Shown here piece by piece: positions 6,001 to 18,000 of a DNA stretch of 64,000 bases. Made by a program: the position numbers. Positions within the stretch are counted from its first letter, which is position 1; each line of letters opens with the position of its first letter. This stretch comes from Perna viridis (lineage: Eukaryota), in NCBI GenBank assembly GCA_037379345.1, contig CM074523.1:26318995-26382994 (forward strand), read 5' to 3'.

Positions 6001-9000
6001 TGAGATGATAAGAGACGAATACATATAAATAAAGGAAGTAGGGAGGAATTGGGTGCGTTTATTGACACAAAATGATGGGTTGGTAAACACTTTTGTTTGG
6101 CTGTTACATAGCGCAGTAAAACTATGTCATTGCTGATACGTTATAACATACCTGTGATGCATTGGTGCATTGTTAACGCATTGCTATACAAGTAAAGGAG
6201 ATGCTAACATAACAAACCAGTCCTATTTAGGAACATGTTTTGTTTACAGAAGTTCCGTACTCGTAAAACTGAAATAGAAATACTCAAGTTTAAAAATATT
6301 TAACTCTATGGCGACTCCGATCGAAGTCTTATGATCTTCTTGTCAGGCAAAAATTAAAGAAGATGCGAGTTTCCTATTACCCTACCCATCATATTTTTTC
6401 AGCTAATATAGTGTACCCTGAAGTTAGCAATTGTTCGGGGTCATTTTTCAATAATCACTGTTAAAGTTAGAATATTCCCTATATATAGACTCAATGTAAA
6501 TAGTAAAATAAAATAAATAAATCCCCACCTACCTACCCTACTTTTTCAAAGGTTTAATAGGAAACGCACATTTTATTTTTTGGCCTTATATGGAATTTTA
6601 CATGAAAGGTCTTCCGTTCCGTTCTAAGTTCATAAACGGTTTAGTCCTTTTCACAATTCCTTCTTCACAGACAGGCGCAATCAACAGCACGGTACACATA
6701 TTTAAGCCATGGTTTCTGAAGGATGTAGCTGATTTTGGGTAATTATGTTTTTCAAGCGTTAAGAGGGTATCCAAGCAAAAACAGGTAGTGGGTGGCACAT
6801 GACAAATTTTGTTTTCAATTTTTTCCCCACTATTTCATATCACAAATGCATCCTTCCCTAAAATTGAATGTTTTTTTTTTTTTTTATTTTCTGCTACGAT
6901 TAAAGAGGAATAAATTACATAGGACGCATCGAAATTCATTGAAAAATGGAGATAACTCTTTAATTTTAGCAAAATATGGTTGCTTTGTTAGGGACCATTT
7001 TTAGAGACATCCATTGTCGATTTAAAGAAACTATACGTATGAAATTTACATTATATTGGAACAAATAGTTCCTTAGGATAAAATTTACCCTGTGCCACCC
7101 AAATCATAGGATCTGCCTGATTTTTACATGGACAGCCTCTTAAAAGCTAGTAAAAAATCTCAAACGAAATTAACCGGAGAGAGACATCCTTAAATTAATA
7201 TGATAATCATATTGTCAGCAATGCATGAACGTTCAATTGTCTGTACCAAAAATAATTACTGTATCATAGCTGATGTTTCTAAGACCCATGACCATCGTTC
7301 AAGCAAGGATTTATATATAGTATATTTAACTCCTTGTTCCAAGTGTAAAAAAATATTCCATTTCCAATTACTTTGATCTTGAACTTGGACAAATCTCCAG
7401 CAAAACCACATGGCCTCTTTCTTACGTACAATAGCACACTTTCTGAATATAATCAAGTTTTGAAAAAATATGCATATCACACTAGTTGGTATAAGAACCA
7501 ACCGAAACGCGAATGCATTCCGATTTCGAGGAATGCTTGGAACCAGGAGTAAGGAGGTTATCAAATGAATATCAAGTACCATTCTGTGTAAGAATCAGGC
7601 AATGTGTGGCACATCATTTGTCTCAATTTGGTCTTTCATGCCTCAAATATATTTAATACATCTAGAAAACCAAAAATAGGTATTTAAATTTATCCTGCAG
7701 CATCAGTGAAATAGATATTTTTGACTGCTTGTATAGGGAAAAAAGTGCAGGAAAATTTTCCCGCCATTTTTTCATTGTGCATTTCAAATAAATTTGACCT
7801 ATCAATATATTAAAAAAAGCATTTTGATGGTTATTTGTAGAGGTTGTGAAGGATAATGCAATAAAATCTCTTCGTTTTTTTATCCAATTTACCTGATTTT
7901 GTGACCGAGAAATACTTAAAATCGTGATTAAATTATAGCCTAGATGCTGCTTTGGATCTGGAACTCGATATCACTGTGCGTTTTACTCGACCAGAATTCT
8001 ACGAAGAAGCCCAAGGACTTGCAGATGGATCAGGAGCTGATATAAAGGTGAGTTAATACCCGATGCATGACGAAAGAACATCTCATGCGACCACAACGTA
8101 TGCTGTTGGACAAAATTCCATGCACACATTATTTCTTCAAATTTATAGTAAACAAAAATGGTGCAACCTTTACATACATTCCCACAAAATTAATACAATT
8201 TTCTAAAAAGAGATTCATTTTACCACCCGACCCCTTTTTGTTTGAAAATGATGTTTATTTCATGCATTTGGGGGGGGGGGGCGGTGCCTTGGACTCTCCT
8301 TTCCTAAACCTCTGGATCCACGCCAAAGTAAATGTATTACATGGCTTTCAAAACAAAACTAAACTAGAAAACAATAATATTTAACACAAACTAAACAAAA
8401 CCATAGCGTGTAAACATAAAACAAATGTTCTTATCCTTTTTGCTATGGCATATTTTTGTGTCCCTAACGAAAATTAACTTTTTTACTATTCTAATACAAC
8501 ATATGTATTCTTAGTCCTGATCTTACGGTGTTTATTGAGAATAAAGAGTTCTATATTTACTTACATGTAGCTTCATGTCTCCAAAGCAAGGTTTTTTGCT
8601 TGAATGAAATTGGTAGCATAATTAAACAAGACACTTGGTTTGGTGATGCAAAATCTTTTTTTTTTCTTTAGTGAAAAAATCTTGAACGGTAGATATTAAC
8701 ATCAAATCACTAAACAATGTATAAAAATTTGACTGTTGTGTTACTTGGCACTGTGAATGATGTCAAATCACTATCGAACTTAGACTAACATGCGTGGTTT
8801 TCCAGTCGTTCCGGCCCCAAGTCGATCCGGCCTCATTTTAAAAGTCGTTCCGTACCCAAAAATAAAAAATATTTAATTTTACCAATTAGTCAATGAATTT
8901 AGATAAATTATTTGAGATTTTACCGAAGTCGCATATTTTTTTTATAAAGATTAGTCAACAAATGTGTATTCATAATGTTTCCGTCAAGAACCATAGACAT

Positions 9001-15000: not shown

Positions 15001-18000
15001 TAGTTTGTTTTGTTTGTTTGTTGGGGTTTAACGTTCGCGCAGCAATATTTCAGCTATATTCAGACGATGAACATGAAATTGATGATAAAATGAACATGAA
15101 ATGATGATGAAATCAAAAAGGGATGGGACACAAGGACAATGGGGTCGACAAATTTTGATTGCCACTGGAAATAGGAAGAGATGTGTAGGGTCGGACAATT
15201 TAGCCTCCTGTGGCGGAGCCCTATGGTTCCTACTCCGGGAGAATACCACAGTAGGGTTCTTTAACGTGCGAGGAACGTGGCATCTTTCCCAACACGGTGA
15301 ACCACTATGGTTTGCGGTCAGGTTTTCCGTATTATAGCCTGACAACCCCAACATGTAACACACCAGGGGTACTCCATTCCACCACCTGGGGCACACATCC
15401 CAGTTGCTTTGTGGGCAGAGCACTATTTAGTCAGAAAAAATCTAATATAATAATAGGAGTTGCGGTATGATTGCCAATGAGACAGTCATCCACCAAAAAC
15501 CAAGAAACGAACTATTAAACTTCTACAGGTTACCACACGGTTTTAAGTGATGGGTAACCCATACCATAAAGCAAGTTGTAAAAGGACCGAAAATAAAAGA
15601 AGAGAAACTATTCATAAAAGACGAAAATCGACTTAACCTTTAGAAAAAACGTAAAACGAATAACAATGAACATAACAAAAAAAATAACGACAACTCCTGG
15701 AGTACAGGTTCCTGGCTTGGGACTAAGTCGTATATAAGCTTTTTGTTGCTATCAACATTCTGGAGAAACAGAAACAGACATAGAACCATCTTAGAAACCA
15801 GATTGAACCAACTCTTCCTAAAACCATTTTTATCCCCTCGACTGGGTCAGTGAGAAGAATTTGTTACCCTTTTTAATCGAAGAACAGAGTTCATTATAAA
15901 CAGCTAAAAGTGACTGTCAAAATGATGCCTGTGTATTTTGGATTCTTTTAGTTTTCTATTTAAAAAGATTCGACTATTGAAGGGACTGAAACAGACGTGA
16001 ACCAAAAGTTACAAAATGTACAAATTGCAATATTAATTATTGACGGATCCATGGTGTTTCAGGAGTAGGATACCTTTCCCTTTTGTCGGAAAATTGTGTT
16101 AAGGAGGTAGACCTAAGGTAAGACACTTAACTCTCAAAATCAGTGATATGTTTGCATCATATTCAATTTCACCAAAGCCTATCAAGCTTTTCTTTGAAAC
16201 ACAATAAAATCAGTCCAAGTTACTTCGATGCTTACACGAGTTTGATGTAAAATAGTTAATAAAGACGTTCCAATGATTTGTAAGAGTTGTTTCCCTTACT
16301 CTAGGTCTACCTCCTTTAATTTAGAGAATTCAAAGAAAATTGTCAAATAATAGCCTGGGCCCTTCGAAAATCTCGGGATCCTCGCCTGATTAATCATATT
16401 GTTTTTGACTCAATTTTGATTCAGTTTTTGCATCTAAATGACGAAATATTTTATATTTAATTTTGGGAACAAGAAGTTGACGCTAAATTGTGAAGTCAAG
16501 AAGTTACTATACTTACGAACTTAGACGTGACATTCTGTTCCAGATGTCTTTGAATCCTAGATATCAAATAGTTTGATATAAAAATCACGGTGTTGAAGCT
16601 TCCCAATGTTTAGTTTTTAACCTCGCTGATGCAATGTGGTTTTAGTCACTCTTAGTATCCAATTTACAGACAATTCTACATTTACTTGTATATATCCGTG
16701 AAAATTTCAAGCTGAAATATTCGATTTGATTTGTTATTTCAAATTCTAATATATTGTTGATTTACCGCTAATGCATCCATATTTATATTCAAAACACCGT
16801 AGATTTCTCGGGGCACTGAGTATTGTATTAGAGATTCACTCAGTCTTACATCCGTTAAAAGAGTTCATCGTGCTCAATTCGTCACCTGGTTAGGCAATTA
16901 ATCACCCATTACAACTAATTAATGAAAGATAATTAGTAATTTAGTCATTTCATATAATTAGCTGTTTAAAGGTGAGATTGTAATTACATGTACTTTGTTT
17001 ACAATTTGAAAAAAAAAGTAAAAATGTATTTGTGTTTTATTTTTCGAATGAGCTGACAGTTTAAATTATAAGTTGCAAAACAAAACCGTATTATAGATAA
17101 TACAACTTACATGACTTAGTATAAATGGAGTAAAATTAATATTTCAGTGGAATTAAAATGTTAAAATTAATGCATGTAACCAATGTAAAAATTAAGAAAT
17201 GTATGACACTGCTTTTTTCATCGCAAAACTTAATTTAGGGACTGGTGTTATGATAAACTATATACAAGTCAGGAATTGAGTCAAGCTAGGAATAAATTCT
17301 TTAAAAAATATCACCCAAACCGTTTAAAAATCGTAAGTATCACATACATACTATATGTGAATAAAAAGTGATGACGAATGCAATAAAATTCAAGGGAATT
17401 AACCCGAACACAACCCCCAAAAAGTGCATGTCCCAAACCGTTTTTGTATGTATTTTTAGTACATACACCTGGGAGTTGTGTACCACAATATGATATTAAC
17501 TTACTTGCTGTCACCAGTCCACAATTGCAACTAGGTTAATAAATAAACATTCTTGGAATCTCCAATTTATGCATACGTAAGCAGATGTATGGAACTTGAA
17601 GTTGTTTGTAAATGAGTTATGCACCTTTTCGCGGTCTTTTACTAGCTTTGTGACGTAATCGAGACGAAGGGATATTTAAAAAAAAAGAACCCAATAGAAT
17701 AACATAAAAATAGATCCGAAAAAAAATACATAACTGTAACCATCCCATGAAGTCTGTGTTTGAAGTACTATATCTCGTCAAATAAAACATGACTGTTCTG
17801 AGTATATGTACAGTTTCAGCTGTGTCCAGCCGTAAACTTATTTTTATAAAATCACTGTGCTATAAATATTACTCGCCAATTCAATGAATGCGAGAAAAAA
17901 AATGTTGCGTTGGTTTTGTGTGTGTGTTTATTTATTTATTTTGTTTTTGTTTTTGAGTATTGTTAAGATGTGTTTTTCTTTTCATTTTCAGAAAATCTTG

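What the first reader, a model, noticed from the sequence alone, without database searches (positions are those of the whole stretch)
8048..17991. Complete Cdc25 gene nested antisense inside intron 5 of a secreted acid-ceramidase-like hydrolase
Seen: host intron 5 is 9.9 kb while its other introns are under 1.5 kb. It holds a full multi-exon Cdc25 with an intact HCX5R site on the opposite strand, mostly invisible to the ORF track. Established: Cdc25 triggers mitotic and meiotic entry, and nested antisense genes tend towards anti-correlated expression. Inference: the gene has introns, so it is not a simple recent retrocopy; it may be a DNA-level transposed paralogue, possibly germline or meiotic. 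Transcriptional interference could couple the two genes.
Basis: partly seen in the sequence, partly recalled or inferred. Interest (0 to 1): 0.72.

Follow-up and report, generated by a model that had tools for sequence, protein, structure and literature searches.

The report
Cdc25 gene nested in hydrolase intron
An intact, intron-containing Cdc25 cell-cycle phosphatase gene sits backwards inside one long intron of a secreted hydrolase gene in what looks like a bivalve genome, which is a real but ordinary gene-within-a-gene arrangement.

Summary
On the + strand, 13 coding exons (3453-24293) are colinear with 441-aa relatives. Residues 162 and 163 lie either side of a 9,944-bp GT-AG intron (8048-17991); the other 11 introns are 245-1,470 bp. 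Inside that intron, on the - strand, is a Cdc25 gene with 8 coding exons (14831-10026, 427 codons). All its splice sites are GT-AG, phases agree and HCEFSSER is intact. Five exons hit human CDC25A/B/C structures colinearly.

Its closest relative is Mytilus coruscus 'STG' (378 aa), which matches all eight exons. That protein lies outside the clade of 21 shorter mytilid-type paralogues. So this is one lineage of a multi-copy bivalve Cdc25 family and not a retrocopy.

The host is a cysteine Ntn-hydrolase. Its fold is closest to isopenicillin-N acyltransferase, then to acid ceramidase and NAAA, and it has no Pfam hit. 'Acid-ceramidase-like' is therefore only loosely right.

Transposition, germline use and transcriptional coupling remain untested. 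No flanking repeats were found, and no bivalve genomes or RNA data were available. Nested opposite-strand genes are common. Verdict: a new member of a known kind, of low interest.

The parts
3453..8047 (+). Host gene coding exons 1-5 (3453-3524, 4685-4820, 5420-5517, 6671-6738, 7939-8047): signal-peptide-like N-terminus and the N-terminal part of a Cys Ntn-hydrolase
   Evidence: Colinear tblastn hits to residues 1-162 of P0007 and to 5 other relatives. GT-AG boundaries and phases.
8048..17991 (+). Host intron 5, 9,944 bp, phase 0, GTGAGT...TTTTCAG. It contains the whole Cdc25 gene
   Evidence: The other 11 host introns are 245-1,470 bp.
17992..18026 (+). Host exon 6, a 35-nt microexon (KILRIHMIGEL + 2 nt)
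   Evidence: Matches P0007 residues about 163-174. Splice sites.
18697..24293 (+). Host exons 7-13 (18697-18791, 19366-19470, 20557-20651, 21130-21240, 21486-21600, 22537-22753, 24224-24293 including stop). Exon 7 begins KGDCSMFGAWG, which holds the family-invariant Cys-Ser (C178-S179 in P0007)
   Evidence: In the AF2 model of P0007 a strand starts at C178.
14622..14831 (-). Cdc25 coding exon 1 (70 codons from the first in-frame ATG). It contains TP sites and the conserved DEDSGIGME motif
   Evidence: 73% identity to P0039 residues 10-58; sequence. The start codon is unconfirmed.
13851..13937 (-). Cdc25 coding exon 2 (LPDDMPVPRFSALCSDNPSQSLTPDICFQ)
   Evidence: Matches P0039 residues about 59-87, 86% identity in alignment A2. 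Boundaries.
13244..13375 (-). Cdc25 coding exon 3 (basic, Ser-rich linker ending FKRSFSFG)
   Evidence: 62% identity to P0039 residues 85-131. Boundaries.
12261..12629 (-). Cdc25 coding exon 4: three SPM-x-GI(Q/P) repeats, then the start of the catalytic domain (DLIADGSRTYCLPTVQGQHPDLKSI)
11758..11856 (-). Cdc25 coding exon 5 (IDCRYPYEYIGGHI)
   Evidence: E 4.8e-9 to CDC25C 3op3 residues 65-95.
11409..11539 (-). Cdc25 coding exon 6 with the active site HCEFSSERAP (HCX5R)
   Evidence: E 2e-6 to CDC25C and 4.6e-6 to CDC25B.
10661..10778 (-). Cdc25 coding exon 7 ([10 protein letters not shown]...[11 protein letters not shown])
   Evidence: E 1.3e-9 to CDC25B residues 109-144. 92% identity to P0039.
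10026..10163 (-). Cdc25 coding exon 8 with the TGA stop (C-terminal tail ...KSKSWTAGEKRRYAMKTLRF)
   Evidence: E 2.6e-6 to CDC25A 8roz. 91% identity to P0039.
8048..10025 (-). Space for the Cdc25 3' UTR. AATAAA or ATTAAA signals on the - strand begin at 9599, 8877, 8536 and 8259, all still inside the host intron
   Evidence: Motif scan only, so usage is unknown.
14832..17991 (-). About 3.2 kb between Cdc25 exon 1 and host exon 6: presumed 5' UTR and promoter space, with two interspersed repeats (15133-15421, 16099-16316)
   Evidence: No promoter evidence was obtained.

Best explanation
This is an ordinary nested gene pair in a bivalve-like genome.

The host is a 13-exon gene for a 441-residue, probably secreted, cysteine N-terminal-nucleophile hydrolase. 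It has the isopenicillin-N acyltransferase / acid ceramidase / NAAA fold. Its fifth intron is 9.9 kb long because it holds a complete, independently transcribed gene on the opposite strand.

The guest is an 8-coding-exon Cdc25-family dual-specificity phosphatase of about 427 residues. It is the counterpart of the 378-aa Mytilus coruscus 'STG' protein.

Shown here: the exon structures, the intact catalytic domain with HCX5R, the colinearity of the host across the intron, and the place of the closest relative among bivalve Cdc25 paralogues.

Inferred from established knowledge of Cdc25: the protein removes inhibitory Thr14/Tyr15 phosphates from CDK1 to trigger M-phase entry. Its Ser/Thr-Pro-rich N-terminal half, with a DSG motif and an F-K-R-S-F-S site (motif roles recalled, not tested), would be the regulatory region.

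Also inferred: the nesting itself is most likely a neutral by-product of gene gain in a large intron, with each gene using its own promoter and no designed coupling.
For: - Host colinearity. Six relatives of 439-466 aa align in order to exons on both sides of the intron, and P0007 residues 118-162 and 160-174 flank it. The total of 441 codons equals the length of P0007 (with exon 3 corrected by hand).
- P0007 is listed on a 1,405-nt contig. That contig can hold a 441-codon ORF only if uninterrupted, so in a relative both halves are in one mRNA-sized sequence (inference).
- Host family. The AF2 model of P0007 has pLDDT 91.3. Foldseek gives IAT 1.5e-15, acid ceramidase 2e-12 and NAAA 4.9e-12. 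Atlas neighbour clusters carry CBAH, NAAA-beta or AAT. C178-S179 are invariant in 21 of 21 aligned relatives, and the window has KGDCSMF.
- Cdc25. Five exons hit CDC25A/B/C structures in chain order: 1cwr 18-52, 52-82, 98-128, 129-164 and 167-202. All 7 introns are GT-AG with consistent phases and no internal stop.
- The conservation gradient versus P0039 is 75-92% in catalytic exons 5-8 and 35-86% in exons 1-4, as expected under purifying selection.
- Only one Cdc25 locus exists in the window.
- Family context. 33 of 34 candidates from the exon 8 search are Cdc25-like proteins of 81-378 aa, several per species. P0039 lies outside the clade of 21 shorter mytilid-type paralogues (SH-aLRT 97). 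A passage in PMC4254928 states that seven CDC25 genes are reported for Crassostrea gigas.
- Commonness of nesting. The abstract of PMC3786989 says intronic genes are about 6% of Drosophila genes (listing). A passage in PMC3192792 says 63% of nested human genes are on the opposite strand.
Against: - There is no transcript evidence from this organism for either gene. The two Cdc25 exon searches found nothing closer than 91% (exon 8) or 60% over a third of the query (exon 4). The host exon search found nothing above 84%.
- The Cdc25 start codon and UTRs are unconfirmed.
- Pfam Rhodanese hits on single exons fall below the cut-off (16.9 and 13.1 bits against 22.2), and 5 of 7 Cdc25 ORF pieces gave no relevant hit. 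I took the family assignment from the PDB hits and from whole relatives (P0005 at 1e-12, P0001 at 9.9e-12).
- Neutrality of the nesting is an argument from how common such pairs are. It is not a test.
- The tree is a quick search without the window's own sequence, and P0039 has a long branch (0.53), so its placement is not firm.
Confidence: 0.8

Rival explanations
1. Functional coupling. The arrangement is selected because transcription of the host across the antisense Cdc25, or the reverse, represses the partner. Hydrolase expression and M-phase or meiotic entry would then be mutually exclusive.
For: The geometry allows it. The whole Cdc25 unit, with candidate poly(A) signals, lies inside the host intron on the opposite strand. 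PMC3192792 reports experimentally that nested genes can cause intron retention, exonisation and cryptic polyadenylation in host transcripts (title and abstract, passages). CDC25 probes were more abundant in released clam oocytes (PMC4254928 passages), so a germline role for some bivalve Cdc25 is plausible.
Against: There are no expression data for this locus. [quoted passage not shown] No conservation of the nesting could be shown, because no eukaryotic genome collection was available. The full-text search for 'cdc25' with 'nested gene' returned 4 papers, none about such a locus by title.
Confidence: 0.08
2. The nested Cdc25 is a silent or decaying duplicate (unprocessed pseudogene) rather than a working gene.
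For: Bivalves carry many Cdc25 copies, so redundancy is plausible. No same-species transcript or protein was found. The start codon is uncertain.
Against: All 8 exons are open, all 14 splice-site dinucleotides are canonical and phases agree. HCEFSSER and DCRYPYEY are intact. Catalytic exons are 75-92% identical to a Mytilus protein while the N-terminal exons diverge more, which is the pattern of a constrained gene.
Confidence: 0.07
3. The 'host' is two genes or an assembly join. Exons 1-5 and 6-13 would belong to different transcripts, so the Cdc25 would be intergenic and not nested.
For: No cDNA from this species was available. The exon right after the long intron is only 35 nt, and its tblastn hits are weak on their own (E 0.004-0.38).
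Against: Relatives are continuous across the junction (residue 162 to 163) with canonical splice sites and matching phase. The total length equals that of P0007, 441 residues. The N-terminal part alone would lack the invariant Cys nucleophile. Shorter database relatives start at many different positions, with no recurrent break at 162/163 (11 examined).
Confidence: 0.03

Closest known systems
Mytilus coruscus 'STG' / M-phase inducer phosphatase, 378 aa (P0039)
   Same: It matches all eight window exons in order: 73, 86, 62, 35, 75, 80, 92 and 85-91% identity. It has the same [46 protein letters not shown] stretch, the same C-terminal tail, the same extra LP(E/D)D(L/M)PVPRFSA exon segment and FKR-x-FSFG.
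   Different: The window's model is about 49 residues longer, mainly in exon 4, where the SPM-GIQ-type repeats differ (35% identity). The N-terminal 10-20 residues do not match. The genomic context of P0039 could not be examined.
Human CDC25A/B/C catalytic domains (PDB 1c25, 1cwr, 3op3, 8roz)
   Same: Colinear matches cover the whole catalytic domain, with an identical HCEFSSER active-site loop and DCRYPYEY.
   Different: The window protein is shorter (about 427 aa). Its N-terminal region gave no hit to the solved chains, which cover catalytic domains only, or to Pfam. The active-site loop ends RAP rather than RGP.
Nested (intronic) protein-coding genes, e.g. Drosophila 2mit in a timeless2 intron
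   Same: A whole protein-coding gene lies within one intron of a host, in the opposite orientation (abstract of PMC3786989 in the listing).
   Different: No expression or functional data exist here, and the gene pair is different.
Acyl-CoA:isopenicillin-N acyltransferase (peptidase C45), acid ceramidase ASAH1 and NAAA
   Same: The predicted fold of the host's close relative P0007 matches all three (E 1.5e-15, 2e-12, 4.9e-12; TM 0.63-0.71 on the target). An invariant Cys sits at the start of a core strand.
   Different: Sequence identity is 14-17%. There is no Pfam hit to AAT, CBAH or NAAA-beta at E <= 1. The substrate is unknown.

Membership tests
Cdc25 (M-phase inducer) phosphatases | Rhodanese-fold catalytic domain alignable to CDC25A/B/C over its whole length | tested here: met
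   Exons 4-8 hit CDC25 chains in order: 1cwr 18-52, 52-82, 98-128, 129-164 and 167-202, with E 0.014, 2.2e-8, 4.6e-6, 1.8e-9 and 1.9e-4. Pfam Rhodanese on single exons stayed below its cut-off. Whole relatives P0005 and P0001 pass it.
Cdc25 (M-phase inducer) phosphatases | Active-site signature HCX5R (HCEFSSER) | tested here: met
   HCEFSSERAP is in exon 6 and aligns to HCEFSSERGP of CDC25C and CDC25B.
Cdc25 (M-phase inducer) phosphatases | N-terminal regulatory region (Pfam M-inducer_phosp, accession recalled) | tested here: not met
   No Pfam hit on the four N-terminal ORF pieces at E <= 1, nor on relatives P0001 and P0005. SP/TP sites and a DSG motif are visible by eye; their roles are recalled, not tested.
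Cdc25 (M-phase inducer) phosphatases | Dephosphorylates CDK1 pThr14/pTyr15 | not testable with these tools
   Needs an enzyme assay.
Nested (intronic) gene | The whole guest gene lies within a single intron of a host whose flanking exons belong to one transcript | tested here: met
   The guest CDS (10026-14831) lies inside 8048-17991. Host exons are colinear with single 439-466-aa proteins across the intron. Same-species cDNA was not available.
Processed retrocopy | Intronless copy with poly(A) remnant and target-site duplications | tested here: not met
   There are 7 GT-AG introns and no flanking direct repeats.
Transposon-carried or DNA-transposed duplicate | Terminal inverted or direct repeats, or transposase remnants, bracketing the gene; or a donor locus identified | tested here: inconclusive
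   No repeat pair brackets 10026-14831. The only repeats are small interspersed elements and low-complexity matches. A donor locus cannot be sought without the genome.
Acid ceramidase / NAAA family (Pfam CBAH + NAAA-beta) | Significant match to the family's sequence models | tested here: not met
   There were 0 Pfam hits for 8 host exon pieces. P0009 and P0012 had none, and P0007 had only one irrelevant weak hit (Ig_TPPC8_2nd, E 0.27), all at E <= 1. The profile of 21 relatives hits NAAA and ASAH1 only at E 0.0086-0.017.
Cysteine Ntn-hydrolase fold (IAT/C45, ASAH1, NAAA, CBAH) | Alpha-beta-beta-alpha Ntn fold with a conserved Cys at the start of a core strand | tested here: met
   AF2 model of relative P0007, pLDDT 91.3. 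Foldseek top 10 hits are IAT, ASAH1 and NAAA. C178 is invariant in 21 of 21 and present in window exon 7. The model is of the relative and not of the window's joined protein.
Cysteine Ntn-hydrolase fold (IAT/C45, ASAH1, NAAA, CBAH) | Autoproteolytic activation at the Cys and secretion or lysosomal targeting | not testable with these tools
   The hydrophobic N-terminus MGRFIVFIVYLTTKSTFA was read by eye. No signal-peptide predictor was available.

The most novel reading that the evidence does not exclude
The antisense nesting of this particular Cdc25 lineage (the 'STG-378' type, separate from the expanded shorter paralogues) inside the Ntn-hydrolase intron is old and conserved among pteriomorph bivalves. 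It would act as a switch, with host transcription through the intron silencing this Cdc25 in differentiated secretory or digestive cells, and Cdc25 transcription in germline or embryo truncating the host message.
Probability: 0.05. Interest if true: 0.45.

Novelty: new member of a known kind. Interest (0 to 1): 0.15.

Why it matters
This is mainly useful for annotation. The long intron, the 35-nt microexon that follows it and the opposite-strand gene are features that could lead automatic gene models to split the host or miss the guest.

It also adds one well-defined member to the multi-copy bivalve Cdc25 family. That family is of interest for oocyte maturation in aquaculture species (PMC4254928 passages).

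In passing, it shows that a widely conserved secreted Ntn-hydrolase family still lacks a Pfam model. None of this changes how nested genes or Cdc25 are understood.

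Tried and rejected
- Pfam exon by exon. For the Cdc25 pieces it gave only sub-threshold Rhodanese hits (2 of 7) and one spurious phage-tail hit. For the host it gave 0 of 8. I used PDB sequence hits and whole relatives instead.
- Upstream Cdc25 exon. I scanned 14600-17991 (- strand) for Met-led pieces with an (R/K)xLF-type motif; the only hit was inside exon 1. I then scored all 12-residue windows in 14760-17991 against the first 12 residues of P0039; the best score was 17, which is not convincing.
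- Flanking repeats as a sign of transposition. None bracket the gene.
- Second Cdc25 copy in the window. None; the only other hit was E 0.36-0.81 at 40819-40944, which I took as chance.
- Recurrent split of host relatives at residue 162/163, as a hint of long introns or internal promoters elsewhere. The 11 shorter relatives start at scattered positions.
- Rfam at gathering thresholds and tRNA scans of the whole window: 0 and 0.
- Review PMC2747821 is not held.
- Not used: the search of protein representatives, complex prediction, the second structure job, and the genome-contig scans (bacterial and archaeal genomes only).
No eukaryotic genome collection was available, so conservation of the nesting, intron positions in paralogues and the copy number in this genome all stayed unchecked.
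- Paper supplements were closed and not requested.

Full report
**Scope and rules.** The window (64,000 bases, no N, about 33% G+C) is not taken to be human. Every informative relative is from a bivalve or another invertebrate or protist. Where a whole protein was needed I used database relatives (P0007, P0039 and others). Whole-protein scores, a fold and a tree placement for the window's own two proteins are therefore missing.

**The host gene.** Stop-to-stop ORFs on the + strand contain pieces such as GTPYEMGKAHG, LDAALDLELDITVRF, CSMFGAWGKSVPVPGSLLQLRALDWSVDG and MDWLCPGF.
- A database search with the 85-residue piece at 22500-22754 returned 32 proteins at E <= 0.001 among 93 candidates. 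Most are 425-466 aa. The best, P0007 (441 aa, unnamed source), is 84% identical. Named hits come from Sinanodonta, Patella and the sponge Ephydatia.
- tblastn of six of these relatives against the window gives hits in strict order along the + strand. For P0007 there are 13 pieces, from residue 4 at 3459 to residue 439 at 24281.
- Residues 118-162 end at 8047 and residues 160-174 begin at 17983/17992. The protein is therefore continuous across the interval in question.
- The junctions read ATAAAG|GTGAGT and TTTTCAG|AAAATC.
- A search for phase-compatible GT/AG pairs gave a zero-gap solution for 10 of 12 junctions. I set the other two by eye.
- The resulting exons are 3453-3524, 4685-4820, 5420-5517, 6671-6738, 7939-8047, 17992-18026, 18697-18791, 19366-19470, 20557-20651, 21130-21240, 21486-21600, 22537-22753 and 24224-24293.
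- In one search I had exon 3 one base too long, so its printed host translations are out of frame. With 5420 the lengths sum to 1,326 nt, which is 441 codons plus stop and equals the length of P0007.
- Intron 5 is 9,944 bp. The other 11 introns are 245-1,470 bp.

**What the host encodes.**
- Pfam finds nothing in the 8 exon pieces. It also finds nothing relevant in three full-length relatives at E <= 1.
- P0007 alone has no meaningful PDB sequence hit.
- A profile of 21 relatives (A1) hits the NAAA beta-subunit, the NAAA precursor and acid ceramidase as its top three, but only at E 0.0086-0.017.
- An AlphaFold2 model of P0007 built with that alignment is confident (pLDDT 91.3, pTM 0.90).
- Foldseek against the PDB puts seven chains of Penicillium acyl-CoA:isopenicillin-N acyltransferase first (E 1.5e-15 to 1.8e-14). 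Acid ceramidase (2e-12) and NAAA (4.9e-12) follow, and choloylglycine and penicillin-V acylases lie further down.
- ESM Atlas neighbour clusters carry CBAH, NAAA-beta or AAT on 10-82% of members.
- C178-S179 are invariant in 21 of 21 relatives and start a strand in the model. Window exon 7 begins KGDCSMFGAWG.
- The host is therefore a cysteine Ntn-hydrolase of the IAT / acid ceramidase / NAAA type. 'Acid-ceramidase-like' is acceptable as a loose description of the fold but not as family membership.
- 'Secreted' rests on the hydrophobic N-terminus MGRFIVFIVYLTTKSTFA, read by eye.

**The nested gene.** On the - strand the ORF pieces carry unmistakable Cdc25 sequence. Against the PDB sequences:

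| Coding exon | Result |
|---|---|
| 5 (11758-11856) | E 4.8e-9 to CDC25C |
| 6 (ORF piece 11408-11545, which holds exon 6) | E 2e-6; HCEFSSERAP aligned to HCEFSSERGP |
| 7 (10661-10777) | E 1.3e-9 to CDC25B |
| 8 (10029-10163) | E 2.6e-6 to CDC25A |
| 4 (end of exon) | E 0.014 to CDC25B; aligns DLIADGSRTYCLPTVQGQHPDLKSI |

- On chain 1cwr the matched ranges run 18-52, 52-82, 98-128, 129-164 and 167-202. The whole catalytic domain is therefore present and in order.
- Bivalve relatives found with exon 4 (6 proteins) and exon 8 (33 of 34 candidates) were compared with the window by tblastn.
- The 378-aa Mytilus coruscus 'STG' protein (P0039) is clearly closest, with summed bits of 514 against 348 or less for the other 33. 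Unlike the mytilid 291-aa type (a few heterodont relatives gave short, weak matches), it also matches the exon at 13244-13375 (62% over 47 residues).
- P0039 revealed a further exon at 13851-13937 (LPDDMPVPRFSALCSDNPSQSLTPDICFQ).
- The final model has 8 coding exons: 14831-14622, 13937-13851, 13375-13244, 12629-12261, 11856-11758, 11539-11409, 10778-10661 and 10163-10026. Every intron is GT-AG, phases are consistent, and the total is 1,284 nt including TGA (427 codons).
- The ATG at 14831 is the first in frame after a stop. An acceptor-like CAG near 14770 leaves room for an upstream exon, which two scans did not find.
- Candidate poly(A) signals at 9599, 8877, 8536 and 8259 all lie inside the host intron. 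The transcription unit need not touch any host exon.

**Paralogue or retrocopy.** Seven introns rule out a processed retrocopy.
- The exon 8 search shows several Cdc25-like proteins per species, for example three M. trossulus proteins on one listed contig and two Tegillarca proteins with adjacent locus tags.
- A passage in PMC4254928 says seven CDC25 genes are reported for Crassostrea gigas, and that six CDC25 or CDC25-like probes were more abundant in released clam oocytes.
- I built a quick maximum-likelihood tree of 31 of the 34 relatives. I left out the fragments P0041, P0063 and P0047, and the window itself was not included. P0039 falls outside the clade of 21 shorter mytilid-type proteins (SH-aLRT 97), within a pteriomorph group (92), on a long branch.
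- The nested gene is thus the counterpart of a distinct, longer Cdc25 lineage. 'Paralogue' is right.
- 'Transposed at DNA level' has no direct support. No direct or inverted repeat pair brackets the gene. The repeats in the intron are small interspersed elements.

**How it most likely works.**
- Shown: two intact genes on opposite strands, one wholly inside an intron of the other.
- Inferred from the established role of Cdc25: the guest dephosphorylates CDK1 Thr14/Tyr15 to drive M-phase entry.
- Its N-terminal half is rich in Ser/Thr-Pro. It carries DEDSGIGME, a DSG motif shared with most bivalve relatives, and FKRSFSFG, shared with P0039. From memory these resemble a beta-TrCP degron and a Chk1/14-3-3-type site. 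That was not tested.
- The nesting is most simply a neutral arrangement. The abstract of PMC3786989 puts intronic genes at about 6% of Drosophila genes (listing).
- A passage in PMC3192792 says 63% of nested human genes are on the opposite strand, and that some show negative correlation with their host. [quoted passage not shown]
- The same paper shows experimentally that nested units can disturb host transcripts. Interference is therefore possible, just not demonstrated here.

**What stayed unchecked.**
- Transcription of either gene in this organism. No same-species protein turned up.
- Conservation of the nesting, intron positions in paralogues, and Cdc25 copy number in this genome.
- A full-text search for 'cdc25' with 'nested gene' gave 4 papers, none on such a locus by title. 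'M-phase inducer phosphatase' with 'bivalve' and 'gonad' gave 3. I read neither set beyond the listing, except for PMC4254928.
- Supplements were closed and may hold bivalve Cdc25 lists.

**Verdict.** This is a new member of a known kind. Interest is 0.15.

Noticed in passing
window 14574-14619: A perfect 23-nt tandem duplication (2.0 copies) begins two bases into the intron that follows Cdc25 coding exon 1 (exon ends at 14622, - strand). On the - strand each copy contains AAGGTACC, so it might offer alternative donor-like sites.
   Followed up: no
window 17992-18026: Host exon 6 is a 35-nt microexon immediately after the 9.9-kb intron. It is a likely trap for automatic gene prediction.
   Followed up: partly
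window 16099-16316; copies at 44385-44605 and 45634-45851: A MITE-like 218-nt element with 39-nt inverted ends (77% complementary). Copies are 82-84% identical.
   Followed up: partly
window 15133-15421 and 19715-19970: A 289-nt interspersed repeat, 74% identical and in inverted orientation, with one copy in host intron 5 and one in host intron 8. It reads through as a long spurious ORF.
   Followed up: partly
window 12777-12927 (inside the Cdc25 intron between coding exons 3 and 4); copies near 34387, 34648, 44821 and 50106: A short interspersed repeat of about 150 nt, 71-77% identical among five sites.
   Followed up: no
host protein family (P0007-P0038; window 3453-24293): The family is conserved in molluscs, a sponge and protist transcriptomes. 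It is about 440 aa with 46 invariant columns. It has no Pfam hit but a confident Ntn-hydrolase fold, so a family model appears to be missing.
   Followed up: partly
window 30814-31287, 32379-32714, 37000-38070 (+) and 26087-26883 (-): ORFs that look like Hsp70-superfamily ATPase genes (from memory, like the HSPA12-type genes expanded in bivalves). Only 37000-38067 gave a Pfam HSP70 hit, just under the cut-off (20.0 against 20.6 bits, E 2.2e-4). The - strand pieces resemble the 37000-38070 ORF by eye.
   Followed up: partly
window 35434-36216 (-) and 48423-49045 (-): There is a 260-aa open frame with no Pfam hit at E <= 0.01. There is also a set of overlapping frames made of a tandemly repeated unit (...RYQYVLTEMDLSPYFFQVPVCA...), also with no hit.
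   Followed up: no
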